IMG/VR virus record: IMGVR_UViG_3300028844_007948
Span: 99,425-163,424 of that record
Direction: 5' to 3' (one strand)
Origin: a virus
Length of the DNA stretch: 64,000 nucleotides
In this document: positions 42,978 through 55,045 of the stretch, piece by piece
How positions within the stretch are numbered: the stretch's first letter is position 1
Layout: each line of letters opens with the position of its first letter
Notes under the pieces: generated by a model
Told to the model about the DNA's origin: nothing
Database searches by the model: none
What the model saw: the letters and a program-made list of their open reading frames with translations, nothing else
Program-made: the position numbers and the translations under genes

Positions 42978-43884
42978 TAAAAATATAATTTTGTGCTTTA
43001 GGCATCAAGCATTATTTCAAGGCAGGACAATGTCAACATTTTGTGGGTTAGGAGATATATTAAAAAGCTTTGTTAATGTTTATATATTTTGCAAGCAAAA
43101 TGGAATTGGATTTTATTTAAATTTTGACCATCATTGCATTAAGAAATTTTTAAATTTTAAAAAATTTGATTTTACTAAAACTTTTAAAGACATAGAGGTT
43201 CCAAAGGTAGTAGATTTCGTTAGTGGTTCTAATTTTTATTCTTATTTATGTGAATCTAATGAAGAGAACATTTTTTTAATGACAGATGGTAACAATATAT
43301 CTAATTTCTCTTATGTAGAAAACCTTGAAGCTGATTTTAAAGAAGTTTTTTTAAGCAATGAAAAAATAGCCGACAATATTAAGAATCAATATTCGGAACC
43401 TTATAATGTTTTTCATGCTAGACTGGGAGACGGAAATATGGTATCAAAGGATTTCCTAGATGATTATTATCTAAGAGACTTCTCTCATCAATATTCTGCA
43501 TATGATTGGTACAATTCTATCGATTTTAACTTTTCTTACGATTTTTTGTATAAGAATTTTAGCGAAGAAATAGCTTCTTCTGATTTCATATGTTCAGACC
43601 ACCTTTCTTTTAAAAAATTTATTTCAGAAAGAAGCGAAGTCAGATATGTAGATTTTGAAACAGTGCATTTAGGGCTTAAAAATTCCATGAAAAATATAGA
43701 GAAAACTCTTTATGATTTTTACATTTTATATTATTGCGACAATGCTTTTTCTGTATCCCATTATCCTTTTGGAAAAAGAGCTAGTGGTTTTGCATACTGG
43801 ATAGATAAAATTTTTATAAAAGATTTTAAATATTTTTCTTTTGATTGGCTTTATCAAAATATAAAACCATTAAAAGTCTATTAA
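42970..43884 (+). CDS. Putative fucosyltransferase (NodZ/GT23-like)
   Basis: CGLGD, FHARLGD, CSD, DFYIL, SGF motifs. Confidence 0.55.
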   Translation: MNNKNIILCFRHQALFQGRTMSTFCGLGDILKSFVNVYIFCKQNGIGFYLNFDHHCIKKFLNFKKFDFTKTFKDIEVPKVVDFVSGSNFYSYLCESNEENIFLMTDGNNISNFSYVENLEADFKEVFLSNEKIADNIKNQYSEPYNVFHARLGDGNMVSKDFLDDYYLRDFSHQYSAYDWYNSIDFNFSYDFLYKNFSEEIASSDFICSDHLSFKKFISERSEVRYVDFETVHLGLKNSMKNIEKTLYDFYILYYCDNAFSVSHYPFGKRASGFAYWIDKIFIKDFKYFSFDWLYQNIKPLKVY

Positions 43885-45015
43885 ATTTTTTCTTTTTAAG
43901 TGTCCTATTCTAGCCCTTAAAGAGTTTATTGATATGCCCATCATTTTAGATATTTCTTTTTGAGGTGTTTTATTTTTTAGCATTTTAGCTAATTTTTGGC
44001 TATCAATTTTAATTTGATTTCTAATCTTTTTTAATAAAGGATACCAACCTTGTTTCACACAAAGAGAAACTATTTGCTTATAGTTATATTTATTTCCAAA
44101 GAAATGTTCGCATAAATCTTTTGATGTGTATTTTTTAGGATTTAAAATTAGGATTTTTCCTATTTTATCTCTGTCTTTTTTTTCTATTGAGCATCTTGGG
44201 GTATTAAAAAAATCCTCGATTGCATTATTACCCTTCGTTACTTTATCGTAAGATTCATCTTTGAGGCTAAATCCATTAAAATGAGCTCTTACTTTATTTT
44301 TTATTTCTATAAAAGATGCGGATACTGCTTGTCTTGTTATGTTCAATTTAATTGCAATTTCATCGTGAGAAAATCCAGACTCTAAATATGCAAAAACTTT
44401 TCTTTGCTCATTCGTCAGTATAGATGAATAATCTTTTATTATTTTTAATATTTTTTTTTGTTTTTCTTTTTCGTCAAAATTATATCCAGCATCTTCAACA
44501 CCCTCTTTTTCCATTATAGCCTCATAAGTACTCTTAAGACCATTTTCTTCATCATAAACGGTTCCATCAACTCTTCTCTTAATATAAGATTTATTAATTA
44601 ATGTCCCTTGGCTCCATTTTATTAGATTTCTAGCATATATAAAAGCACAATGCTTAAAACTCTTTTGATTAAAAATTTTATTATTTTTGATGTATAAAAT
44701 TAAGTTATTTCTTTTTTTTAATAAAGATAAATTAATTTCGCTTGCCAATTCTTCTGCTGACAACAAATGAGTATTATATCTATATTTTGCTATTATCCTT
44801 TCGATGTCTTCCTGAAAATCTTCCAACCATATATTATATTTTTTTATTTGCAATTTCGTAGCCTTGAACTCCTTTTTTTCTAGCCTTTTTTGTGGAATTT
44901 TATATGAGCTTTTATCTACAGCTTCTGTTTTAAAAGTTTCTTTGCTTTTTGGTTTTCCATCTACATCAAAATAATCGTATAAAGTGCCTGGAATGTATGA
45001 TTTTTCTCTTTTCAT
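43870..45015 (-). CDS. Atypical sigma70-family factor with additional C-terminal HTH domains
   Basis: Region-4 HTH LTNEQRKVF...SHDEIAIKLNITRQAVS; extra HTH QKEISKMMGISINSL; paralog of 46029..46703. Confidence 0.65.
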   Translation of the reverse strand: MKREKSYIPGTLYDYFDVDGKPKSKETFKTEAVDKSSYKIPQKRLEKKEFKATKLQIKKYNIWLEDFQEDIERIIAKYRYNTHLLSAEELASEINLSLLKKRNNLILYIKNNKIFNQKSFKHCAFIYARNLIKWSQGTLINKSYIKRRVDGTVYDEENGLKSTYEAIMEKEGVEDAGYNFDEKEKQKKILKIIKDYSSILTNEQRKVFAYLESGFSHDEIAIKLNITRQAVSASFIEIKNKVRAHFNGFSLKDESYDKVTKGNNAIEDFFNTPRCSIEKKDRDKIGKILILNPKKYTSKDLCEHFFGNKYNYKQIVSLCVKQGWYPLLKKIRNQIKIDSQKLAKMLKNKTPQKEISKMMGISINSLRARIGHLKRKNLIDF

Positions 45016-46042
45016 GGGTTAAACGGGGTTTTGAAAGGACTTGGGTATTCTTTTCTCCAATCCACTTCTCCTTTAGTTTCTCTCATCATTTTTTTAAGGT
45101 GAGAATATTTAATATTTAAAATCTTAGCGGCATCAGATCTTACATTGTTAGATTTGGCTAAAGCTTCTTTTATTCTTGGCTTCCAGTATTCTAACCTTTT
45201 ATTCCTTCTGGATAGCCCTGTGTTTTTTATATTTTCGTTTTTTTTTTAATTTGTTCTTTTGTTAGATTGAAAGGTACAAATCCATTATCCATCATTCTTT
45301 TTATTACAACTTTTTGGGTCGCAGATCTCTCTTCTTTGGAAACTCTGGGCGGCGGATGTTTTTCATAAGGGTATTCTTTATTCCACCAATCAAGCCCGTT
45401 GATTCTTTTCATCAACTTGTATAATTGGGTTCTACCCATGTTTAGGTATTCAGCTGTCTTTTTTCTATTATTGCCTGATTTTATAAACCCCTCTATTATT
45501 CTTGATTTCGTTTGTGCCATTTCTTTTTTATCCCATTCAACCCATTCTGTACCATTCCATTTCTTACCAATCCTTTTTTCTATTGGTAAATGCTTTCCTT
45601 TTCTATGTAAAGTTGAATAGCTATTTGGACCAGACTTAAATCCAATAGTTTTTAAATGATTATAATTTGTTTTATTGAATCTATTGGTGTATCCATCAGG
45701 TCTTTTTATTTCGAATTTAAATATGTGGTCATTCTCATTTGGATATGCTGCTAATTTTATTTGATCCCAATTTGCAAAAGTTAATTTTTTATTTTCTATT
45801 TTATATCCAGAGTGAAACATAAACCCTTGAATTGATTTTATTTTTATTTTATCTTCTTGTAATCTGAGCTTTAATATTTTTTTTGCATTTTTATATGAAT
45901 TTGATTTTAAAAATGTTTTAAAATCTTTTTCTGATCCATCTTCATATACCTCTGTATACGCAATATTCCAATATTGGTCGAAAGGATAATCAGTTTTCCT
46001 AAAAACCTTTTGGCAGCATGTTTTTTTCCTACCCCTTTTCAC
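45012..46042 (-). CDS. X-domain protein with two Fis-like HTHs (-1 frameshift at A10, 45238-45247)
   Basis: Frame 0 stops at 45227; the -1 frame continues with a second HTH (RIKEALAKSNNVRSDAAKILNIKYSHL...WRKEYP) to a TGA at 45012 overlapping the next ATG. Confidence 0.7.
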
Positions 46043-46703
46043 TTTGAAATAATCTCTCCATAGATTTATAACCTTCTGAAATTTTCTCCCAACATTCGTC
46101 GTTTAAGAAATTATTCTTAATTCTACATTTTAATTTTTCCTCTAACCTTATGACGTTAAAACTTATCGCCTGATGAGTTACTCCCATTTCTTTAGCCATA
46201 TCTTTTTGCTTTTTTCCTTGTAGTAGCATGTCAATTAACTGAACTTCATTTTTAGTCAAATGGTCCGAGTAATTTTTAATTAATTTTAAAAAATATTTAT
46301 GTTTTTGGTTTTTGTCAAAATCGAAGTCATGATTAACCCCCTCAGTATATTCCATCATTTCAAATGAACTTTTCTCCCCCTCTCTTGTTTTGATGACACA
46401 ATCCAATCTCCTTGAATTATATTTATCCTCAACTTTTCTGCACTGATACCAGACAACAGCATTTTTTATAAAACTACAAATTTGGAACCTAAAACATTCA
46501 AAATTGAACTCATCAAACATATCGTTTCTAAAGTTTATAATCTTATCTTTTCTCTTTAAAATGTTGAAGTTTAAATCACTAGCGATTTCTTCAACACTCA
46601 TTAAGTGGTTATCTCTTCTCTTTGACCCTATTATTCTCATTATATCAGGTTGAAATTCTGATAAATATTTGTAAAACTTTTCTTCTTCTTCTTCTTTATT
46701 CAT
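46029..46703 (-). CDS. Atypical sigma70-family factor
   Basis: VEEIASDLN region-2-like helix; LTKNEVQLI...QKDMAKEMGVTHQAIS region-4 HTH. Confidence 0.65.
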   Translation of the reverse strand: MNKEEEEEKFYKYLSEFQPDIMRIIGSKRRDNHLMSVEEIASDLNFNILKRKDKIINFRNDMFDEFNFECFRFQICSFIKNAVVWYQCRKVEDKYNSRRLDCVIKTREGEKSSFEMMEYTEGVNHDFDFDKNQKHKYFLKLIKNYSDHLTKNEVQLIDMLLQGKKQKDMAKEMGVTHQAISFNVIRLEEKLKCRIKNNFLNDECWEKISEGYKSMERLFQSEKG

Positions 46704-47311
46704 ACTAAATTTTTTAATTTTTCTTGGTTTTTCTTGAATGCTTGTTCTGCTAATAGATGGTTAATTTTATACTTGAATAAGTAATTATTTTCATTAGGAA
46801 AGCTGCAGTTTCTAATATTGTACCAATCTTCTATGGACAATCTAGCTCCATCTTTTTGCAAAAAACTAGAATGAAACATGAACCCTTGAATTGATTTTAT
46901 TTGAGAACAATCAGAGTCTTCGTTGAATTTTTCTTCCAATATTCTTTTTGCGAACATTAAAGATCTCGCCTTAATCACTGAAATGTATTTAGTTTCAGAT
47001 TTATCTAAATTTACCACTTCGTAGTACATCTTCCAATATTGGTCGTAACCAAATTTTTTATTTTTAAATTTATTTTGCATATTTATTTTTTTCTTTTTGG
47101 TAAAGCATTTCCTGCATCCCTTCGTTGCCTCTGGCGTGTTTTTGCATGTTCTTAAGTGTTCTCTGGGTAATATAAAGAAATCCCCATGAGTTTTGCATTT
47201 TAATTTTACTTTTGTTTGATTGTTAATATAGACTATGTCATCATAATTGTATCTATCTCCATGAATACTTATAGCTTGTTTAATAAATTCTTCTCTAGTT
47301 TTTTTTTTCAT
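46700..47311 (-). CDS. Zinc-ribbon (homing endonuclease-type) + X-domain protein
   Basis: EEFIKQA...HGDRYNY...CKTHG...GCRKC followed by DQYW...KSIQGFMFH...FPNEN. Confidence 0.7.
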   Translation of the reverse strand: MKKKTREEFIKQAISIHGDRYNYDDIVYINNQTKVKLKCKTHGDFFILPREHLRTCKNTPEATKGCRKCFTKKKKINMQNKFKNKKFGYDQYWKMYYEVVNLDKSETKYISVIKARSLMFAKRILEEKFNEDSDCSQIKSIQGFMFHSSFLQKDGARLSIEDWYNIRNCSFPNENNYLFKYKINHLLAEQAFKKNQEKLKNLV

Positions 47312-47544
47312 TCTTTTTTGTCAACTTTTTTATCGACTCTTTTTCTGAATAAAATATTATTCTCATATTCGCCCACAGACCTTCCAATCTTAAAAGAAAA
47401 CTTGTCTATGAATATTATTAATCCCACTATAACATATAGAAAATAATTTGTCAACTCTATATTTAATACTAAAAGATATATTAATAATCCATAAGGTAAA
47501 AATTTATTTACTAAATATTCTAACATTGCTTGATTATTACTCAT
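47308..47544 (-). CDS. Small two-TM membrane protein
   Basis: Two hydrophobic stretches; overlaps the ECF sigma stop; ATGA-coupled to the next gene. Confidence 0.6.
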   Translation of the reverse strand: MSNNQAMLEYLVNKFLPYGLLIYLLVLNIELTNYFLYVIVGLIIFIDKFSFKIGRSVGEYENNILFRKRVDKKVDKKE

Positions 47545-48115
47545 TTTCGAACCTCCCATAAACTTCATATTGGTTAATTTTTCTTTTTGCACATTTTGTT
47601 AAGGCTTGTCTCATCCTGTGCATTGTGGATGAAACAGCTCCGATACTTCTTCCTGTTATTTTTGATATTTCTTTCATTGTTTTCTCTTCTTTATACCACA
47701 ATTTTGCTATTATAGCCATTTGTTCTGGTAATGTTTCATAGCATAAGCTTAAAGCTTTAGATTCTAAATCAAGGTCTTGTTTAGACATGTTTTTGGATTG
47801 ATCCATCATATCCTCTAAAAATTCACTATTAAATGACAATTTATTCCTTTTTGATTTTTGCAAAAATGCCATTATTTGAAATCTCGCTATTCTAAAAGCC
47901 CATGTTTTTAATCCTCCTTTTTTGGGGTCAAACTCTTTTTTCTTCTTGCAAACAATTAAATTTGTTTCTTGTAAAACGTCTAAAGCATTTGGTTTTGATA
48001 TTAAAATAGAAAAAATAAATGAAAATAAATTCTTTTGTATTCTTTCTAATTCGAAATCGAAATCAAAATTATCATCAACCTTTTTCTGTTTATTCTTTTT
48101 TAAAGCTTTTATCAT
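47537..48115 (-). CDS. ECF sigma factor (Rhodopirellula/Verrucomicrobium type)
   Basis: DVLQETNL...EFDP...KTWAFRIARFQ; LPEQ...MKEISKITGRSIGAVSSTMHRMRQAL. Confidence 0.85.
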   Translation of the reverse strand: MIKALKKNKQKKVDDNFDFDFELERIQKNLFSFIFSILISKPNALDVLQETNLIVCKKKKEFDPKKGGLKTWAFRIARFQIMAFLQKSKRNKLSFNSEFLEDMMDQSKNMSKQDLDLESKALSLCYETLPEQMAIIAKLWYKEEKTMKEISKITGRSIGAVSSTMHRMRQALTKCAKRKINQYEVYGRFENE

Positions 48116-48347
48116 TTATGAATAGTCTATCCTCCCATTTCTGGGAGTAAGGGTTAAATTTTTCTATAGAAATGTCTTGAGCACACAACCTGCGCCTTAA
48201 AAGCATTGATTTGTGGGCTCTTAGAGCTTCGCTTGCACTTTTAGCCATAAAATAATGGTAACTATCTTGGGCAATATGATCTTGGCCAGCGTTGTATCTT
48301 ACCCTATATTCAAATAACTTGTATTCTTTATACTTTTTATTCTTCAT
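48090..48347 (-). CDS. Hypothetical protein
   Basis: ATG at 48347; YRVRY...YFMAKSASEAL. Confidence 0.6.
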   Translation of the reverse strand: MKNKKYKEYKLFEYRVRYNAGQDHIAQDSYHYFMAKSASEALRAHKSMLLRRRLCAQDISIEKFNPYSQKWEDRLFINDKSFKKE

Positions 48348-48516
48348 TCCCTTTCCAATATATATCATCAAATAAAATAAATTTAATTTCATCTTCAAAT
48401 TCTACATCAACCCCTACAGGGTCACCTTCTACGACAGGCATATCAGAATCTTTGTAAAAAAATTCTTCTTCTTCTGAAGCTTTTACTAATTGACAGGACA
48501 TTGATTCTATATTCAT
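48337..48516 (-). CDS. Small acidic protein (59 aa, not in ORF track)
   Basis: MNIESMSCQL...WKGNEE*; ATGA overlap with the upstream gene. Confidence 0.6.
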   Translation of the reverse strand: MNIESMSCQLVKASEEEEFFYKDSDMPVVEGDPVGVDVEFEDEIKFILFDDIYWKGNEE

Positions 48517-48773
48517 ATTTTTATTTCTAATTGTTTCTGATTGTTTTTTGATGATAACACTTTTTTTTGGATATTGTCAATGTTTTTTTTATTTTTTTTG
48601 AAATTCTTTTGTGCTATCCTCACCATGAACCTCATCAAGGAGAAAGAATAAGCTTTGCTGAAACTTATGGTTTGAGCTTCTTCTGTTTCTTTATTTTTGA
48701 TAGTTACTTGAAATTGTTTTAATTCAGAATCGTACTCAAATTCTCCAAATTTTAGTTCTTTTATTATTTTCAT
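48513..48773 (-). CDS. Hypothetical protein
   Basis: 86-aa ORF within the operon. Confidence 0.6.
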   Translation of the reverse strand: MKIIKELKFGEFEYDSELKQFQVTIKNKETEEAQTISFSKAYSFSLMRFMVRIAQKNFKKNKKNIDNIQKKVLSSKNNQKQLEIKI

Positions 48774-48774
48774 G

Positions 48775-49824
48775 TCAATCGTTCGGAATTGTTTTAATTA
48801 TTTCTCTTGCCATTGTTGGTGGAAAACATTCTCCTAGGACTTTTCTAATAAATCCTTCTGAATATTTATTTTTAAATTTATTTAACAAATCACATGGAAT
48901 CCCACATAAAATAGCCAACTCCATGACCGATAAAACCCTGGCATCAGAATAAGTTCCATCTAACAATAGTCTTCCAGGGTGAACATTGTTTTGGCTTGAT
49001 ATTGCCCCATTGCACATGGTTACAGTAGGTGATGGCTTATCCCAATCTATCCTCTTGTATGTTGTCATAAAGCCTTTAATCCTTCTTCCATCTTTTTTTG
49101 GATAATGAATTTTATTATTAAATGCTGTTTGCCCTGTTGGGGTATTCTTCATCCAAGTTACGTGATTGGAGTTATGTTTTTTTGCATAATGCCAAGGCAT
49201 GTTAGTTTTACCCCCAGATTCCAAGGAAGGCAAATGTCCTATTGCATCTCTTACGGTTACTAATTTTTTACTAGGAGCAGGATGTTCCCATTTCCCATCT
49301 TTAGAAATCAAACCTATAAATCTTTTTCTTGATTGCGGGGTGTTATAGTTTTCAGCGTTTAGTGCTTTGTAATTCATTAACCAAGGCTTTGAAAGCCTTG
49401 ATTCTATATATTTAATTATATTTATAACTTCACCATCTACCTTAATCCATGTGTTTGCCATCCCTGCTACATTTTCTATCAACATGTAATCAGGCTTTAT
49501 TTCATTAAATACATCCATAGCATGTACTATTAAAGAATTTCTAGGGTCGCTACCCGACCTTTTTGCATTAGCCACACTCATTCCTTGGCAGGGGGGCGTT
49601 GCTATTATCAAATTGATATTTTTACTTAACGATTTTTGGCAAATTTCTTTTTTTATATCTTTTTTTGTTACATCTCCAACTATAACATCGGTTTCTGGAT
49701 GAAGTTTTTTGTAAAACATGCACCTACTCTCTTCAATTTCATTTGCTAGGACTATATTAATCCCCGCAGGCTTTAAAAGTACTTCGCCGAACCCAACATT
49801 TGCAAAAAGAGATAATCCGTTCAT
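48775..49824 (-). CDS. C5-cytosine DNA methyltransferase (orphan)
   Basis: SLFANVG, GDV, TPPCQGMS, IENV, PQSRKR, GECFPP; no obvious cognate restriction enzyme adjacent. Confidence 0.9.
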   Translation of the reverse strand: MNGLSLFANVGFGEVLLKPAGINIVLANEIEESRCMFYKKLHPETDVIVGDVTKKDIKKEICQKSLSKNINLIIATPPCQGMSVANAKRSGSDPRNSLIVHAMDVFNEIKPDYMLIENVAGMANTWIKVDGEVINIIKYIESRLSKPWLMNYKALNAENYNTPQSRKRFIGLISKDGKWEHPAPSKKLVTVRDAIGHLPSLESGGKTNMPWHYAKKHNSNHVTWMKNTPTGQTAFNNKIHYPKKDGRRIKGFMTTYKRIDWDKPSPTVTMCNGAISSQNNVHPGRLLLDGTYSDARVLSVMELAILCGIPCDLLNKFKNKYSEGFIRKVLGECFPPTMAREIIKTIPND

Positions 49825-49855
49825 TTAGCAAAATATACTTTAATTTTCAAACTTA

Positions 49856-50248
49856 TCAAGAAAAAGTTTCCCAATATTTTAGAACATTAGCTTTACTAGA
49901 ATTAACGGAAAATAGATTGAACAAGAATTTGCCCTCCCCTATGTGGTATTTTGAAACAAAAAATACATCATCAAATATTTGCTTCATGGAATTTTCAAAA
50001 ATTTTTTCATTTTTTTCCAAATATAGGATTTTCATAAACGAATCTTCGTCCATTAAATCTTCTATAAAGTCTTCCTGGAGAAGTAGTAATAAAATATCTT
50101 GACATTTCTTGACTGAGATTTTCTTCCCGTCAAAACCGCCAGACAATAAAAGTTTTAATTTAAATTTTTTAAAAAAAAATTCTATTTTTTTGTCAAAAAA
50201 GTCTCTACAATCTTTAAAGATGTAATTCTCGACTTTACTTTTTGACAT
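49856..50248 (-). CDS. Hypothetical protein
   Basis: ATG at 50248 avoids overlap with the upstream gene. Confidence 0.5.
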   Translation of the reverse strand: MSKSKVENYIFKDCRDFFDKKIEFFFKKFKLKLLLSGGFDGKKISVKKCQDILLLLLQEDFIEDLMDEDSFMKILYLEKNEKIFENSMKQIFDDVFFVSKYHIGEGKFLFNLFSVNSSKANVLKYWETFS

Positions 50249-50252
50249 TTGC

Positions 50253-50450
50253 TTACAGCTTTTCGTCACCCTGCTTCCATTTTGAACACCATCTGTAGCT
50301 TTGCACATTGACTACTTTTCCTTTGTCTTCCTCGGATAGATAGTTTACTGCGCTTCTGAGGTTCACTTGCAATGTGTCTATTAAAGCATAAAGATCGGCT
50401 ATTTGCTTTTCTTGATTATGTATTTGTAGTTTTAATTGTCTTTCGTTCAT
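50253..50450 (-). CDS. Small coiled-coil hypothetical protein
   Basis: 65-aa ORF at operon-like spacing. Confidence 0.55.
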   Translation of the reverse strand: MNERQLKLQIHNQEKQIADLYALIDTLQVNLRSAVNYLSEEDKGKVVNVQSYRWCSKWKQGDEKL

Positions 50451-50455
50451 TTTTT

Positions 50456-51133
50456 TTATCCAAAAGGAAATTTAATTTTGTTAAAATAAGAAATTTGATC
50501 TTCAGAAAAGAATTCCCAACCATTGATTTCGCATATTATTTTTACGACCTCAAGAAAATAGAGATAATTCGGATGGTTTGTTTGGTCTAGGCTTTTTATT
50601 TCGCTATTTCTTTTTAATATGTAGTCTCCAGTCACCCTAACTCCAAGGTCTTTATCGTGTTTATCCATTTCCCTTTTAAATCTTTTGGCTTTGTCATGAT
50701 GGTGAAATGATGGGATAGATATTAATTGAGCAGAATCTTTTGCTAACCATTTTACTCTACCAAAGTTTAAAATACTAGAGGTTTCGGGTTTAATTTTTTG
50801 AAATATTATCACATCCGATAGTTGTATCATCTTTTTTATCTTGACAGCTTCATGAATGTTGTATTTCACATCTCTTTTATTATTCTCAACTAGTCTATGT
50901 CTATTTTTTCTGTTGGCGTGAAGAAACATTTTGCTTTTAAATTCATCTTTATATAACTCTTTCATATGGTTAGAAAATCTTTCTGCTACCAAAAAGTTAC
51001 AAACTGCCTCTCTGTTTTTTGATGCCGAACTTACTTGTGGAAGCCTTCTTAGATACCATGCTATAGCTTCAGCTTGGCAATTTCCGATGACTGAAATCCT
51101 CGCATTAAATGAGCTTTTTTCTTCTTTCTCCAT
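50456..51133 (-). CDS. WcbI-like polysaccharide-modifying protein
   Basis: VIGNCQA, DVIIFQ, TNHP. Confidence 0.55.
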   Translation of the reverse strand: MEKEEKSSFNARISVIGNCQAEAIAWYLRRLPQVSSASKNREAVCNFLVAERFSNHMKELYKDEFKSKMFLHANRKNRHRLVENNKRDVKYNIHEAVKIKKMIQLSDVIIFQKIKPETSSILNFGRVKWLAKDSAQLISIPSFHHHDKAKRFKREMDKHDKDLGVRVTGDYILKRNSEIKSLDQTNHPNYLYFLEVVKIICEINGWEFFSEDQISYFNKIKFPFG

Positions 51134-51202
51134 AAATATATTTTATTTTTGTTTTGATTTTTTTAAACTTTAATTTATGTTTACTTAAACAAAATCAAAA
51201 AT

Positions 51203-51490
51203 ATGTCAGATAATACACATAGCACAGAAAACGAAAGCACTTCAGAGTGGCGTAAAAGAGAGCTTGGCGCTCTTTGGAAAAAAGAGGGTAAATCCCAGAG
51301 GTTTTATTCTGGGTTTGTCAAAATGAACAAAGGTAGCCCAGAAGAAAAAGAAGTCAGATTAGTGATTTTCGTCAATAAAGTAAAATCAAACGAGCGAGCG
51401 CCAGACTTAGTTATTTATGAGTCAACAGATTCAAACTCTACGACCCAAGATAAGAATCATGACGACATCCCAGACAGCTTCATAGATTAA
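51203..51490 (+). CDS. DUF736-like putative ssDNA-binding protein
   Basis: LGALWKK...FYSG...APD; acidic tail DDIPDSFID. Confidence 0.6.
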   Translation: MSDNTHSTENESTSEWRKRELGALWKKEGKSQRFYSGFVKMNKGSPEEKEVRLVIFVNKVKSNERAPDLVIYESTDSNSTTQDKNHDDIPDSFID

Positions 51491-51524
51491 TTTTTTTTAA
51501 ATTTTTTATTTTTTTTAAAAAAAC

Positions 51525-51553
51525 TTGACTAAGTTGTTTTTCTATGTCATAGT
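51525..51553 (+). promoter_or_regulatory. sigma70-like promoter (extended -10, probably leaderless)
   Basis: A-tract, then TTGACT-N17-CATAGT with TGn; ATG 6 nt downstream. Confidence 0.6.
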
Positions 51554-51559
51554 TATGGC

Positions 51560-51835
51560 ATGATTAATAAAAAAGTAACATACAATAAAGATGGTACTCC
51601 ACGAAAAAGTGGGAGCGGAAGAAAAGCTGGATCAAATTCTTTTGTAAGAGTAACCTTTTCGGATTTGTCTAATTATATTGGAGAAAACACTCCGATTTTA
51701 GTTAGTAGGGTTTGGTTAGAGAATCTAGGCATTTCCCTTGCTTCTAATAAAGCTGAAAAACCAAAAATAGAGTTGACAGACTCGCAAGAGTCTGATACAG
51801 TTCTATATAAAATTAAAAAATTCGACAAGGAGTAA
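51560..51835 (+). CDS. Small basic putative DNA-binding protein
   Basis: AT-hook-like KDGTPRKSGSGRKAGS. Confidence 0.55.
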   Translation: MINKKVTYNKDGTPRKSGSGRKAGSNSFVRVTFSDLSNYIGENTPILVSRVWLENLGISLASNKAEKPKIELTDSQESDTVLYKIKKFDKE

Positions 51836-51837
51836 TT

Positions 51838-52764
51838 ATGAAGGATATATTTTCACATCTAGTAGGGCAAAAAAACGTAAAGAAAAAGCTTAGTTTTTAT
51901 TTAAAGGCTTTTAATAAAACAGGAATCAGTCCTTTTTTAGGTTTTTTTGGAGCTAAGGGTTTAGGTAAAACAGAGTTTGCTAATGCTTATGCTAGAAATT
52001 TGCAAAATGCAGATGGGTCAAAAAGACCATTGTTAGAATTAAATTGTTCAACGATCAAGAATAACGATAGTTTTTTCGAGCAAATCTTTATCCCTCTTAT
52101 TCTTGATAACGAAATCACAGTTTTATTTGATGAAGCTCATGAGTTACCAAATGACTTGACTATGGCTTTATTATCAATTTTGGACACAAGAACCTCTCAT
52201 GTTAGAGAGTTTACTTGGAAAGAAACTCGTTTTCCATTTAATTTTAAAAAGCAAACTTTCTTATTTGCAACAACTGAAAGTGACAAACTCTTTCCACCTT
52301 TAAAAGATAGATTAACCTCTGTTGACTTCGATCCCTATTCTGAGGAAGAATTGGGCAAGATATTATCTTTTGCCATCGAGTGTCCTGTGCATAAAAATGT
52401 ACTTTCTCAACTAAGCTCTGTTGTTAGGGGTAATGCAAGGAATGCAATAATGAGAGCTAAAGATATAAATCTTTATATTGCCTCTGAAGATTTAGACTCT
52501 TTTTCTTTAGCGGATTATCATAGTTTTTGTGACATTTTAGGTATATTGCCTTTTGGAATTACATGCACGGAGAGGCAAATCTTAGAGGTATTGCAAGAGA
52601 AAGGGTCTTGTACCCTCGGAATGTTGGCTGCGAAAACAGGTTTAAGCTCAACTTCATTAAGGGGAGATCATGAAAAATACCTTCTTAAGAAGAATCTAAT
52701 GGAGATTGATGTCAAAAGAAAAATCACTCCACTTGGTAGGAAAGTTGTTAAATCTTTAATTTGA
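51838..52764 (+). CDS. ruvB: Holliday junction branch migration ATPase
   Basis: LVGQ..VK, GAKGLGKT, LFDEAHEL, FATTE, PLKDR, RGNARNA, EKYL, RKIT. Confidence 0.85.
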   Translation: MKDIFSHLVGQKNVKKKLSFYLKAFNKTGISPFLGFFGAKGLGKTEFANAYARNLQNADGSKRPLLELNCSTIKNNDSFFEQIFIPLILDNEITVLFDEAHELPNDLTMALLSILDTRTSHVREFTWKETRFPFNFKKQTFLFATTESDKLFPPLKDRLTSVDFDPYSEEELGKILSFAIECPVHKNVLSQLSSVVRGNARNAIMRAKDINLYIASEDLDSFSLADYHSFCDILGILPFGITCTERQILEVLQEKGSCTLGMLAAKTGLSSTSLRGDHEKYLLKKNLMEIDVKRKITPLGRKVVKSLI

Positions 52765-52765
52765 T

Positions 52766-53275
52766 ATGTTCGTCCATAAGTACGACAAAAGAAACGCTGC
52801 CTCTATAGGGAATAGGGCAGAAAGGATTTTTGTATCTATTGCGGGTAGAAGGGGTTACAAGATAAAGCCATCTACAAATCAAGAAAACAAGGTAAAAAGA
52901 GTTGATTTTTATTTAGAGAAAAATTCTCAAATTAAAGGTTTTGATGTAAAATCAAGGAAGAAAATATGTTATTACGATGAAGATTATAATGATGATTGGA
53001 CTTGGGTTGAATTTAAAAATGCAGATGGATTTGATGGATGGATGTATGGAGAAGCAGACTACATCGCATTCGAAAAGTTGAAATATTTTATTGTTGTGGA
53101 TAGAATATCATTAAAAAATCTAGCAGAAAAAATAATAGATAGAGATAAAGAATTTGTAAAAGATTGTCACAATGCAAAATACAGAATATATCAAAGGAGA
53201 GATCAAGAACAAATATCTCTAATTAAAAACTCGGATATAAAAACTATAAAAAGAAAAGCTATTTGGGAAAAATGA
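52766..53275 (+). CDS. PD-(D/E)XK-like nuclease
   Basis: G..AE, VDF...FDVKSR, WVEF, GWMYGEADY. Confidence 0.6.
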   Translation: MFVHKYDKRNAASIGNRAERIFVSIAGRRGYKIKPSTNQENKVKRVDFYLEKNSQIKGFDVKSRKKICYYDEDYNDDWTWVEFKNADGFDGWMYGEADYIAFEKLKYFIVVDRISLKNLAEKIIDRDKEFVKDCHNAKYRIYQRRDQEQISLIKNSDIKTIKRKAIWEK

Positions 53276-53490
53276 AATTTGACGAGCAAACAGACGCTTT
53301 TAGATTCGACCTAGACGACCTTTGCGAAAGGTATTTAGAAGAATTTGATATTAACGTTTTTACAGAAGTTGGAGCTTTGGAAGAAAAAAAACTTGAACTC
53401 TGTAGGATAATAGATATTATAGAGGAAAAAAAGATAGAACTCTTAGGGGAAGATATAGAATTTGAAGTAGATGAAGACTTCTTTGATTAA
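53272..53490 (+). CDS. Small acidic protein
   Basis: Overlaps the upstream stop; strongly D/E-rich. Confidence 0.55.
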   Translation: MKFDEQTDAFRFDLDDLCERYLEEFDINVFTEVGALEEKKLELCRIIDIIEEKKIELLGEDIEFEVDEDFFD

Positions 53491-53521
53491 TATAATTTTC
53501 TTAGTAACAAACAAACTAAAA

Positions 53522-54163
53522 ATGAAAACAAAAACATATATTACGGCACTTTTGTGTCTTATTTCTAACGTCGCTATTGCTGGTTCAGCAAGCATTGGAT
53601 ATACTTCTGATTATTTTCGCAGAGGTGCATTGCTTTCTGAAGAAGCATTGCAAACCTCCGTAAGTTTAGAAAAAGAAGTTGCAGGATTTTCTCTTTCCGC
53701 AGGGGCTTCAACAAATCAAGCCGTTTCTGTTGGTGAAGATTCTTACATCATTGAAGGTGGAGCATCAGCTCAAGTAGGAGAATTGCTTGATCTTTATGTT
53801 GGTCTTCAGCATTTTGAACAGCGCTCTGATGATGCGACTCTTGAAGTTAATCTAGTCGCTTCATTGAATTCTGTCTTGAGCCCTAGTCTTTCTATATTTA
53901 GAGATACAGATGATGAGCTTTACACTTATGAATTAGGTGTTTCTCATTCTTTTGATGCTAAATTAGCTGATTTAGAACTTTCCGCATTGTATGGAAATAC
54001 TGATCTTACGGAGTCAACAGATGAAGATTATTATGTCCTTGGAGCTAAAGCCTCTAAGAGTTTATCTGAAAGTGCTTCCCTTGAATTGGGGTACAATTAT
54101 GTAGACTCGGACTTGATTAACGATGAATCTATTGTATCTGCATCAGTAGTGTTCTCTTTCTAA
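53522..54163 (+). CDS. Outer-membrane beta-barrel (TorF-like putative porin)
   Basis: Signal peptide ending VAIA/G, SDYFRRG, alternating amphipathic strands, C-terminal Phe (VVFSF). Confidence 0.75.
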   Translation: MKTKTYITALLCLISNVAIAGSASIGYTSDYFRRGALLSEEALQTSVSLEKEVAGFSLSAGASTNQAVSVGEDSYIIEGGASAQVGELLDLYVGLQHFEQRSDDATLEVNLVASLNSVLSPSLSIFRDTDDELYTYELGVSHSFDAKLADLELSALYGNTDLTESTDEDYYVLGAKASKSLSESASLELGYNYVDSDLINDESIVSASVVFSF

Positions 54164-54189
54164 CGAAAACAATTAACCATAATAATAAC

Positions 54190-54444
54190 ATGAGTGAAGT
54201 AGTAAATAAAATCAAATGTGCCGTTTGTGGCATTAGCGCCGTACTATTGTCCGTAATTGGACTTCTAGTGCTTTCCCAAGTAGTTTTTGGGGCAAATGCT
54301 GGCATCGATGTCATCGGTAACCTTCAGGGCATTGTTAATGGCTTTGTCGGTCCAGGAGCTAGTCTTGCGGGTGTTATCACGCTTGTATTGATTGTCGCTA
54401 TTCTTGGCAAGCAAACTGATAGTGCTTGTGTAAATAAGAAGTAA
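54190..54444 (+). CDS. Small two-TM membrane protein
   Basis: Hydrophobic hairpin with a DVIGNL loop. Confidence 0.7.
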   Translation: MSEVVNKIKCAVCGISAVLLSVIGLLVLSQVVFGANAGIDVIGNLQGIVNGFVGPGASLAGVITLVLIVAILGKQTDSACVNKK

Positions 54445-54469
54445 TATTCTCTTACATCGCATTAGACTT

Positions 54470-54497
54470 AACCCCCCTCAATAGAGGGGGGTTTTTT
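54470..54497 (+). terminator. Rho-independent terminator
   Basis: AACCCCCCTC-aata-GAGGGGGGTT followed by a T-run. Confidence 0.88.
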
Positions 54498-54532
54498 ATT
54501 GTTTTTTTTGTTTTTCTTGTTAAAATAATTTT

Positions 54533-55045
54533 ATGGATTATTCAGAAAAATATCTATTTATAGTGTATTATACAATATATGTAGATAAGTCCAGAGACTA
54601 CAAAACTTTTATAAAATCTAAAGATAGGGATTCAGCTAAAGATGTTTTTACAAAAAAAATCAAAAAAGATTGCAAGGGGCTTTTAATTAAAAATTTGAGG
54701 ATTGTAAAAGTCAACAGAAGTAAATACAGAGGAGTTTCAATATCAGATAAGCAATGGGAGTCCTTAAAAAAAATATCTTACCCTAATTCAAAACATGTAT
54801 TATCAAAATTACCTAAAGATTGTTGGTTCAGAAGACCTGTTTCTAAAAACAGAAATGCAGATGGAACATTTAAGATGGGTAATACTCCTTGGAATAAAAA
54901 TTTTAAAATTAAATTTATTAAAAAAAATAAAAAAGGATGTTTTTCAAGACCTAGAGATGGTATGGGCAGGTTCAGAAAAGGCTGTAAGTGTTTAATGGTT
55001 GGTGTTAAAGATGAAACCTTTAAAAAATTACATTCAAAAAAATAG
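54533..55045 (+). CDS. X-domain protein with NUMOD-like C-terminal repeats
   Basis: YKTFIKSK...AK, W....ISYPN; RNADGTFKMG, PWNK, RDGMGRFRKG. Confidence 0.65.
   Translation: MDYSEKYLFIVYYTIYVDKSRDYKTFIKSKDRDSAKDVFTKKIKKDCKGLLIKNLRIVKVNRSKYRGVSISDKQWESLKKISYPNSKHVLSKLPKDCWFRRPVSKNRNADGTFKMGNTPWNKNFKIKFIKKNKKGCFSRPRDGMGRFRKGCKCLMVGVKDETFKKLHSKK

What the first reader, a model, noticed from the sequence alone, without database searches (positions are those of the whole stretch)
45227..55045. Unrecognised ~90-aa X domain in three copies, each fused to a different DNA-binding module
Seen in sequence: X1 carries an N-terminal CxxH/CxxC zinc ribbon of the kind found in phage homing endonucleases. 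X2 carries two Fis-like HTHs. X3 (54533-55045, plus strand, more diverged: YKTFIKSK...AK...W....ISYPN) carries RNADGTFK/PWNK/RDGMGRFR NUMOD-like repeats. Established: a constant core with swappable DNA-binding modules is typical of homing endonucleases and modular regulators. Inference: X is a new catalytic or interaction domain. The small ORF 48090-48347 (YFMAKSASEAL) may share the beta-beta-alpha-beta pattern, but that is weak.
Basis: partly seen in the sequence, partly recalled or inferred. Interest (0 to 1): 0.75.

Follow-up and report, generated by a model that had tools for sequence, protein, structure and literature searches.

The report
Phage sigma-factor docking domain family
A large marine phage carries three copies of an undescribed small protein domain that is probably not a DNA-cutting enzyme but a clamp that grips the tail of the phage's own transcription-initiation (sigma) factor, in one copy tying it to a DNA-binding arm whose length is switched by a slippery run of A's.

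Summary
The three copies are real homologues (z 6-24) of a ~105-aa domain with no Pfam match and 81 clusters in 1.8 billion proteins. Two corrections. The zinc ribbon on X1 is a sporadic add-on; X1 is normally stand-alone. The X2 reading frame holds one Fis-like HTH; the second lies in the -1 frame behind an A10 run that is kept in two lineages (62% identical) with purifying selection downstream, i.e. probable programmed slippage. A nuclease role is unlikely: no conserved catalytic residue. X folds like eL20/LX, T7 Gp2 and RNA-polymerase epsilon (Z 4-7, weak), plus an added helix. X1/X2-type genes sit directly upstream of a divergent ECF-like sigma gene (88/88 hits with room; 20/20 in a sigma-first search), and the pair duplicates as a unit. 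A complex model docks X on a conserved helix after sigma region 4 (0.65, best control 0.00; mark reached by 58/80 solved, 2/110 mismatched pairs). Best reading: a sigma-docking cofactor, with Fis-like HTHs adding promoter specificity; binding is predicted, not shown. X3 is an orphan without a sigma. The scan noted the X-sigma pair before in another genome (e1-5344676).

The parts
46700..47311 (-). X1 gene (203 aa): DUF723-like zinc-ribbon N-terminus (res 1-70, lineage-specific) + X domain (46763-47092); its stop overlaps the sigma2 start (ATGA)
   Evidence: stand-alone in orthologues
46029..46703 (-). sigma2: divergent ECF-like sigma factor (224 aa), cognate partner of X1
   Evidence: TIGR02937 E 4e-5, below cut-off; phrog_1740 E 9e-6; fold hits nearly all sigma factors, best E 1e-3
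46038..46094 (-). post-region-4 docking helix of sigma2 (res 204-222; G211 97%, F219 95% conserved); predicted X-binding site
45227..46042 (-). X2 short form (271 aa): X domain 45698-46015, GFKxG..W linker, Fis-like HTH repeat 1 (45368-45499)
45238..45247 (-). A10 run; one extra A (or a -1 shift) joins X2 to the second HTH and gives a 343-aa long form
45012..45237 (-). -1 frame extension of X2 with Fis-like HTH repeat 2 (45042-45176); its stop overlaps the sigma3 start (ATGA)
   Evidence: open for 73 codons in 4 genomes; pN 0.087 vs pS 0.43 against L022
43870..45015 (-). sigma3: divergent ECF-like sigma (381 aa) with docking helix (44197-44253) and extra C-terminal HTHs; cognate partner of X2
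54533..55045 (+). X3: diverged X domain (54533-54820) + RNxxGxF / PWNK / RDxxGxF tail (54851-54976); no sigma gene behind it
47537..48115 (-). sigma1: conventional ECF sigma (best match TIGR02989, Rhodopirellula/Verrucomicrobium type, 104.9 bits, under the cut-off 124.55); lacks the docking helix; context only
48090..48347 (-). small ORF 'X0': conserved neighbour, not an X homologue by any test run

Best explanation
X is a non-catalytic docking domain that binds the phage's own divergent ECF-like sigma factor through an amphipathic helix appended after sigma region 4. The two genes are co-transcribed and translationally coupled (ATGA overlaps), so the subunits are made together. In the common X2 form, X is tied to one to four Fis-like HTH repeats, which would bind upstream promoter DNA and bring the sigma-host RNA polymerase complex to phage promoters: a two-part promoter-recognition factor. 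The stand-alone X1 form would stabilise or license sigma2 without a DNA arm. In this lineage an A10 slip site makes both a one-HTH and a two-HTH X2 from one gene. X3 is an orphaned copy that may act in trans. Shown: homology, gene pairing, frames, selection on the -1 frame. Predicted: fold and interface. Inferred: activation, DNA binding by the HTHs, slippage in vivo.
For: X1/X2-type genes with downstream room are followed directly by the sigma gene in 88 of 88 hits (69 distinct pairs; some contigs redundant). A sigma-first search found X directly upstream in 20 of 20 loci, 5 on new contigs. The pairing holds for distant stand-alone members P0115 and P0130. The pair duplicated as a unit: stand-alone X1 rows and their sigmas each form one side of a branch (98/98 and 100/98). 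Complex model sigma2 + X1 domain: score 0.65 against best control 0.00; the mark was reached by 58 of 80 solved complexes and 2 of 110 mismatched pairs (counts hold only roughly with my own alignments); runs share at least 45% of contacts; partner pLDDT at least 75. The contacted sigma helix lies outside the ECF core, carries G211 (97%), I215 (76%), F219 (95%), and in this genome occurs only in the two X-coupled sigmas. X contact residues I93, N100, F106 are 89, 100, 84% conserved. PF02954 HTH_8 on X2. The core fold resembles two RNA-polymerase binders, Gp2 (Z 4.6, 1.9 A over 51 aa) and epsilon/YkzG (Z 4.5, 2.7 A over 58 aa).
Against: No experiment. The X interface as a whole is not more conserved than the rest of X (entropy 2.12 vs 1.58), and inter-protein covariation is not enriched at the interface (1 of the top 50 pairs, about 0.7 expected). 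Tree congruence is expected of any linked genes. Fold Z-scores of 4-7 are in the range of a common arrangement, and eL20/LX scores higher than Gp2 or epsilon. X3-type genes (6 distinct relatives plus the window) and P0146 (L109) have no sigma behind them. The sigmas score below curated cut-offs. The model cannot tell activation from inhibition.
Confidence: 0.55

Rival explanations
1. X binds the same sigma helix but as a soluble anti-sigma or timing inhibitor; the HTH arm would then make X2 a repressor or park the sigma on DNA.
For: The same pairing and complex evidence; ECF sigmas are usually co-encoded with an anti-sigma (own knowledge); stand-alone X1 has no DNA arm.
Against: The predicted contact is confined to residues 204-222, outside regions 2 and 4, which known anti-sigmas cover (own knowledge). 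Most members carry HTH repeats (36 of 65 full-length representatives), which an anti-sigma would not need.
Confidence: 0.2
2. X mainly binds host core RNA polymerase or nucleic acid through its Gp2/epsilon/eL20-like core; the sigma contact is secondary or an artefact of the model.
For: Fold hits to eL20/LX (Z up to 7.2), Gp2 (4.6) and epsilon (4.5). Highly conserved residues Q6, Q18, Y19, W20, Y24, T25, S44, K66, H74 are not among the confidently placed sigma contacts. X3 persists without a sigma neighbour.
Against: Z under 8 shows no function; strict two-way pairing with a sigma that has a dedicated tail helix is better explained by direct binding. Not exclusive of the best explanation.
Confidence: 0.15
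3. X is a new nuclease or other catalytic core with swappable DNA-binding modules, as in homing endonucleases.
For: DUF723-like and NUMOD3-like appendages are typical of phage endonucleases; an HNH gene lies near X3.
Against: No conserved His/Asp/Glu across the family; many stand-alone members; fixed position in front of a sigma gene in every X1/X2 locus examined; the zinc ribbon is present in only two lineages.
Confidence: 0.04
4. On the A10 site only: it is a degenerative frameshift or a phase-variable replication slip, not programmed decoding.
For: Most relatives are in frame, one of them with A10 in the same linker; no stimulatory hairpin behind the run (z -1.3 to 0.9); a natural one-HTH class exists.
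Against: Same A10 and same shift in four genomes of two lineages 62% identical; the -1 frame stays open for 73 codons with pN far below pS; its stop overlaps the sigma3 start; a contig of another study bridges the run with no indel (run X5).
Confidence: 0.2

Closest known systems
T4 gp55 + gp33 (split sigma; PMC2988020)
   Same: A phage sigma-family protein that works with a separate small phage cofactor on host RNA polymerase.
   Different: gp33 binds the beta flap as a sigma-4 mimic and reads no DNA; here the sigma keeps its own region 4, and the cofactor is predicted to bind the sigma's tail and usually carries HTHs. No sequence or fold link found.
ECF sigma / anti-sigma pairs (SigE-RseA, RpoE-NepR, SigW-RsiW)
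   Same: Two-gene cassette with an ECF-type sigma and a dedicated binding partner; the sigma model's fold hits include these complexes.
   Different: Partner gene lies upstream, is soluble, alpha/beta, often DNA-binding, and is predicted to bind outside regions 2 and 4.
T7 Gp2 and Bacillus RNA polymerase epsilon (RpoY/YkzG) (10.1101/2021.06.06.447298)
   Same: Beta-beta-alpha-beta core aligns at Z 4.5-4.6 over 51-58 residues; both are RNA-polymerase binders.
   Different: X has about 45 more residues (helix, PN loop, strand) that form most of the predicted sigma interface; 8-14% identity; homology not shown.
Ribosomal protein eL20/LX (PF01775)
   Same: Best structural neighbour (Z 5.5-7.2, rmsd 2-3.5 A over 64-76 residues; atlas TM 0.51).
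   Different: No Pfam hit, 4-15% identity, phage transcription context; fold only.
Transcriptional-slippage genes (T. thermophilus dnaX A9, Shigella mxiE; PMC1088944)
   Same: A run of 9 or more A/T yields two products; as in mxiE, the slip makes the longer one.
   Different: Here it would set the number of HTH repeats on a phage sigma cofactor; not shown at RNA or protein level.

Membership tests
Homing endonucleases (HNH, GIY-YIG, PD-(D/E)xK, LAGLIDADG) | Conserved catalytic His/Asp/Glu motif in the core domain | tested here: not met
   only N invariant; S, A, W, P, L at 90% or more
Homing endonucleases (HNH, GIY-YIG, PD-(D/E)xK, LAGLIDADG) | Profile match to a nuclease family | tested here: not met
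   no match over the X domain; phrog_681 covers X1 residues 2-90 only
Homing endonucleases (HNH, GIY-YIG, PD-(D/E)xK, LAGLIDADG) | Nuclease fold | tested here: inconclusive
   top rows are eL20/LX-like; an unlisted family is not excluded
Homing endonucleases (HNH, GIY-YIG, PD-(D/E)xK, LAGLIDADG) | Sporadic presence/absence at an insertion site | tested here: not met
   X is present before the sigma in every sigma-first locus (20/20)
eL20/LX (PF01775) | Beta-beta-alpha-beta fold | tested here: met
   (Z 5.5-7.2; below the level that shows kinship)
eL20/LX (PF01775) | Sequence profile match | tested here: not met
   none of 38 members hits PF01775 at E 0.1
T7 Gp2 / RNAP epsilon | Shared core fold | tested here: inconclusive
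   Z 4.6 (1.9 A, 51 aa) and 4.5 (2.7 A, 58 aa)
T7 Gp2 / RNAP epsilon | Binding to core RNA polymerase | not tested
ECF-type sigma-70 (partner genes) | Region 2 + region 4 architecture | tested here: met
   TIGR02937 spans both proteins (E 2e-8, 4e-5; under cut-off), PF08281 on sigma3; fold hits are sigmas
ECF-type sigma-70 (partner genes) | Directs promoter-specific initiation | not testable with these tools
   needs in vitro transcription
Anti-sigma factors | Binds the cognate sigma | tested here: inconclusive
   model supports binding, 0.65 vs best control 0.00 (58/80 solved, 2/110 mismatched reach the mark); not a measurement
Anti-sigma factors | Blocks regions 2/4 and inhibits holoenzyme formation | tested here: inconclusive
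   confident contacts only at residues 204-222; unnamed residues are uncertain
Fis-type HTH_8 (PF02954) | Profile match above gathering score | tested here: met
   25.3 bits vs 22 on X2; two stretches, 39.3 bits, on in-frame orthologue P0010
NUMOD3 (PF07460), X3 tail | Profile match | tested here: not met
   no Pfam hit; atlas feature score 0.79 is a lead only
Programmed transcriptional slippage | Run of 9+ A/T with a conserved, selected alternative frame | tested here: met
Programmed transcriptional slippage | Extra A in RNA but not DNA | not testable with these tools
   only assembled contigs available, none shown to be RNA

The most novel reading that the evidence does not exclude
An undescribed class of phage two-component sigma factor: a Gp2/epsilon-fold adaptor clamps the sigma's tail helix and supplies interchangeable DNA-reading arms (0-4 Fis-like repeats), with arm length switched by transcriptional slippage, so that duplicated X-sigma pairs run successive stages of phage transcription on host polymerase.
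Probability: 0.3. Interest if true: 0.8.

Novelty: new variant of a known kind. Interest (0 to 1): 0.6.

Why it matters
Known phage sigma cofactors (T4 gp33, AsiA/MotA) act on host polymerase or host sigma, and known ECF partners inhibit. A DNA-binding adaptor that docks on a dedicated sigma tail would be a different way to set promoter specificity and a small portable module for orthogonal transcription. It also gives a first testable model of gene control in a widespread group of uncultured 160-200 kb marine phages, probably of Verrucomicrobia/Planctomycetes hosts (inferred), and a clean candidate for slippage-controlled domain number in a phage regulator.

Tried and rejected
Pfam, PHROG, NCBIfam and PDB sequence searches for X: nothing. 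Foldseek against PDB and BFVD: no match at E 0.001; many 56-66-aa uncharacterised phage proteins share the core; no nuclease among the top rows. ESM atlas feature hits all under 0.9. X0 (48090-48347) as a fourth copy: rejected. Interface conservation and MI covariation gave no support. Mantel r 0.74 between X and sigma distances is not counted as co-evolution, since linked genes share history. A second A10 run at the X1 start (47299) is interrupted in the 93%-identical relative L022, so incidental. No stimulatory RNA structure after the X2 A10. No RNA holder listed. X3 single-protein scan of viral contigs found nothing. Paper searches found no description of this domain, which is weak evidence.
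Full report
Setting. The window is the last 64 kb of a 163,424-bp virus record, with ribonucleotide reductase, DNA polymerase, DnaB helicase and virion genes; runs that hold the DNA are marine or viral metagenomes. Close relatives are uncultured 160-205 kb phages. A conventional ECF sigma in the same operon matches best the Rhodopirellula/Verrucomicrobium family, which hints at a PVC-superphylum host (inference).

The observation. X1 (46700-47311, -), X2 (45227-46042, -) and X3 (54533-55045, +) share a domain of about 105 residues. Shuffle z-scores are 23.9, 8.4 and 6.0, and a family profile finds exactly these three in the genome. No Pfam family explains it. An exhaustive profile search of 1.84 billion representatives gives 81 clusters: a small, closed family. 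The small ORF 48090-48347 is not a member by pairwise or profile test.

Architectures. Among the 81 representatives, 16 are fragments; of the rest 35 are X followed by detectable Fis-like HTH repeats, 18 X alone, 7 X3-type, 1 DUF723-like + X, 1 HTH + X, 3 other (sequences show up to four repeats).

Not a nuclease core. In 91 diverse members only the Asn of 'PN' is invariant; Ser, Ala, Trp, Pro and Leu follow. No His, Asp or Glu survives across X1, X2 and X3 types. The AlphaFold2 model (pLDDT 93.7) is helix, two strands, helix, strand, then a second helix and strand. Its best neighbours are eL20/LX (Z up to 7.2), then T7 Gp2 (Z 4.6, 1.9 A over 51 residues) and RNA polymerase epsilon/YkzG (Z 4.5). 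Gp2 and epsilon are known to resemble each other (10.1101/2021.06.06.447298). These Z values show a common arrangement, not a function.

The partner. In the window the order is sigma1, membrane protein, X1, sigma2, X2, sigma3. Sigma2 and sigma3 are paralogous, divergent ECF-like sigmas. In fetched loci, every X1/X2-type gene with room downstream is followed directly by this sigma: 88 of 88 hits, 69 distinct pairs. Searching from the sigma side, 20 of 20 loci have X directly upstream, 5 of them on contigs not found by the X search. Distant stand-alone members keep the pairing; one locus has X-X-sigma and one divergent X+HTH has no sigma. Stops and starts overlap as ATGA at X1/sigma2 and at long X2/sigma3. 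The stand-alone X1 group and its sigmas each form one side of a well-supported branch: the pair duplicated as a unit.

Predicted contact. Sigma2 with the X1 domain scored 0.65 in three runs against a best control of 0.00; the mark was reached by 58 of 80 solved complexes and 2 of 110 mismatched pairs, counts that hold only roughly for my alignments; runs agree in at least 45% of contacts and the partner's pLDDT is at least 75. No like solved complex turned up in my searches. The contact is sigma residues 204-222, a helix after region 4, lying on X's added helix, PN loop and last strand and on strand 2. That helix carries G211 (97%) and F219 (95%), is found by profile in 46 of 51 sigma homologues (two of the five misses are truncated), and in this genome occurs only in sigma2 and sigma3, not sigma1. 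Against this: the X interface is not more conserved than the rest of X and covariation adds nothing. Binding is predicted, not shown.

The A10 site. Most X2 homologues are about 345 aa with two HTH repeats; the window's stops at 271 aa. An A10 run at 45238-45247 is followed, in the -1 frame, by 73 open codons that encode the second repeat and end on the sigma3 start. The same run and shift stand in L022 (94% identical upstream) and in L003/L023 (62%). Behind the run, window against L022 gives pN 0.087 and pS 0.43; against L003 pN 0.29 and pS 0.67, close to the values before the run. A contig from another study bridges the run without an indel. A or T runs of 10 or more occur only three times in the genome. 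Runs of nine or more A are slippage-prone, and mxiE uses such a slip to make its longer product (PMC1088944). With no hairpin downstream, transcriptional slippage is the likelier route. I put programmed two-product decoding at about 0.75.

X3. Six distinct relatives have an X3 and none has a sigma behind it. It occupies the slot, after genes 53471 and 54190 and before the 54999 family or the HNH gene, where single-copy phages have their X2-sigma pair (L006, L013, L017). It is best read as a copy left behind when the pair moved. It stays conserved and keeps PN and the neighbouring hydrophobic residues, so it may act in trans; untested.

Mechanism and verdict. Most likely X docks on the tail of its cognate phage sigma, and the HTH arm of X2 adds upstream DNA recognition to make a two-part specificity factor for host RNA polymerase (0.55). 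An anti-sigma role (0.2) or a main contact with core polymerase or nucleic acid (0.15) remain open; a nuclease role is unlikely (0.04). It works like T4 gp55/gp33 in being a sigma plus cofactor (PMC2988020) but is not a member of that family, nor shown to be an anti-sigma or a Gp2/epsilon homologue. Three sigmas in one phage are rare (0.7% of phage genomes, 10.1101/2021.11.12.468384). Class: new variant of a known kind. Interest 0.6.

Noticed in passing
L078:4195-4210: A second X2 orthologue is split between HTH1 and HTH2 at a different place, an A-run reading A_AAA_AAG in frame (the classic bacterial -1 site); single contig, could be an assembly error.
   Followed up: partly
window 47299-47308: Second A10 run right after the X1 start codon; interrupted by a G in the close relative L022, so probably incidental.
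   Followed up: yes
window 47308-47544: Small membrane protein (about 78 aa) conserved in 21 of 22 loci; directly upstream of X1 wherever X1 is present, elsewhere in single-copy phages; no Pfam.
   Followed up: no
window 51838-53275: RuvB-like AAA ATPase with the C-terminal winged helix, followed by a conserved 169-aa ORF that looks by eye like a PD-(D/E)xK nuclease; no family hit.
   Followed up: no
window 53471-54444: A 230-aa protein that looks like an exported beta-barrel plus an 84-aa membrane protein, conserved together in 14-15 loci; no NCBIfam hit for the larger one.
   Followed up: no
window 43870-51133: The sigma/X operon is an inverted block: GC skew flips between about 44 and 51 kb; in L001 the same genes are co-oriented with X3.
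   Followed up: partly
L010:7998-9494, L015:7980-9626: Sigma3 orthologues grow to 500-550 aa by adding further C-terminal HTH repeats, mirroring the variable repeat number on X2.
   Followed up: no
L004:3765-5045: A 426-aa protein with a twin-arginine-like start in 4-5 related phage loci, recalling PVC-type DUF1501 proteins (from memory, not tested); a possible host clue.
   Followed up: no
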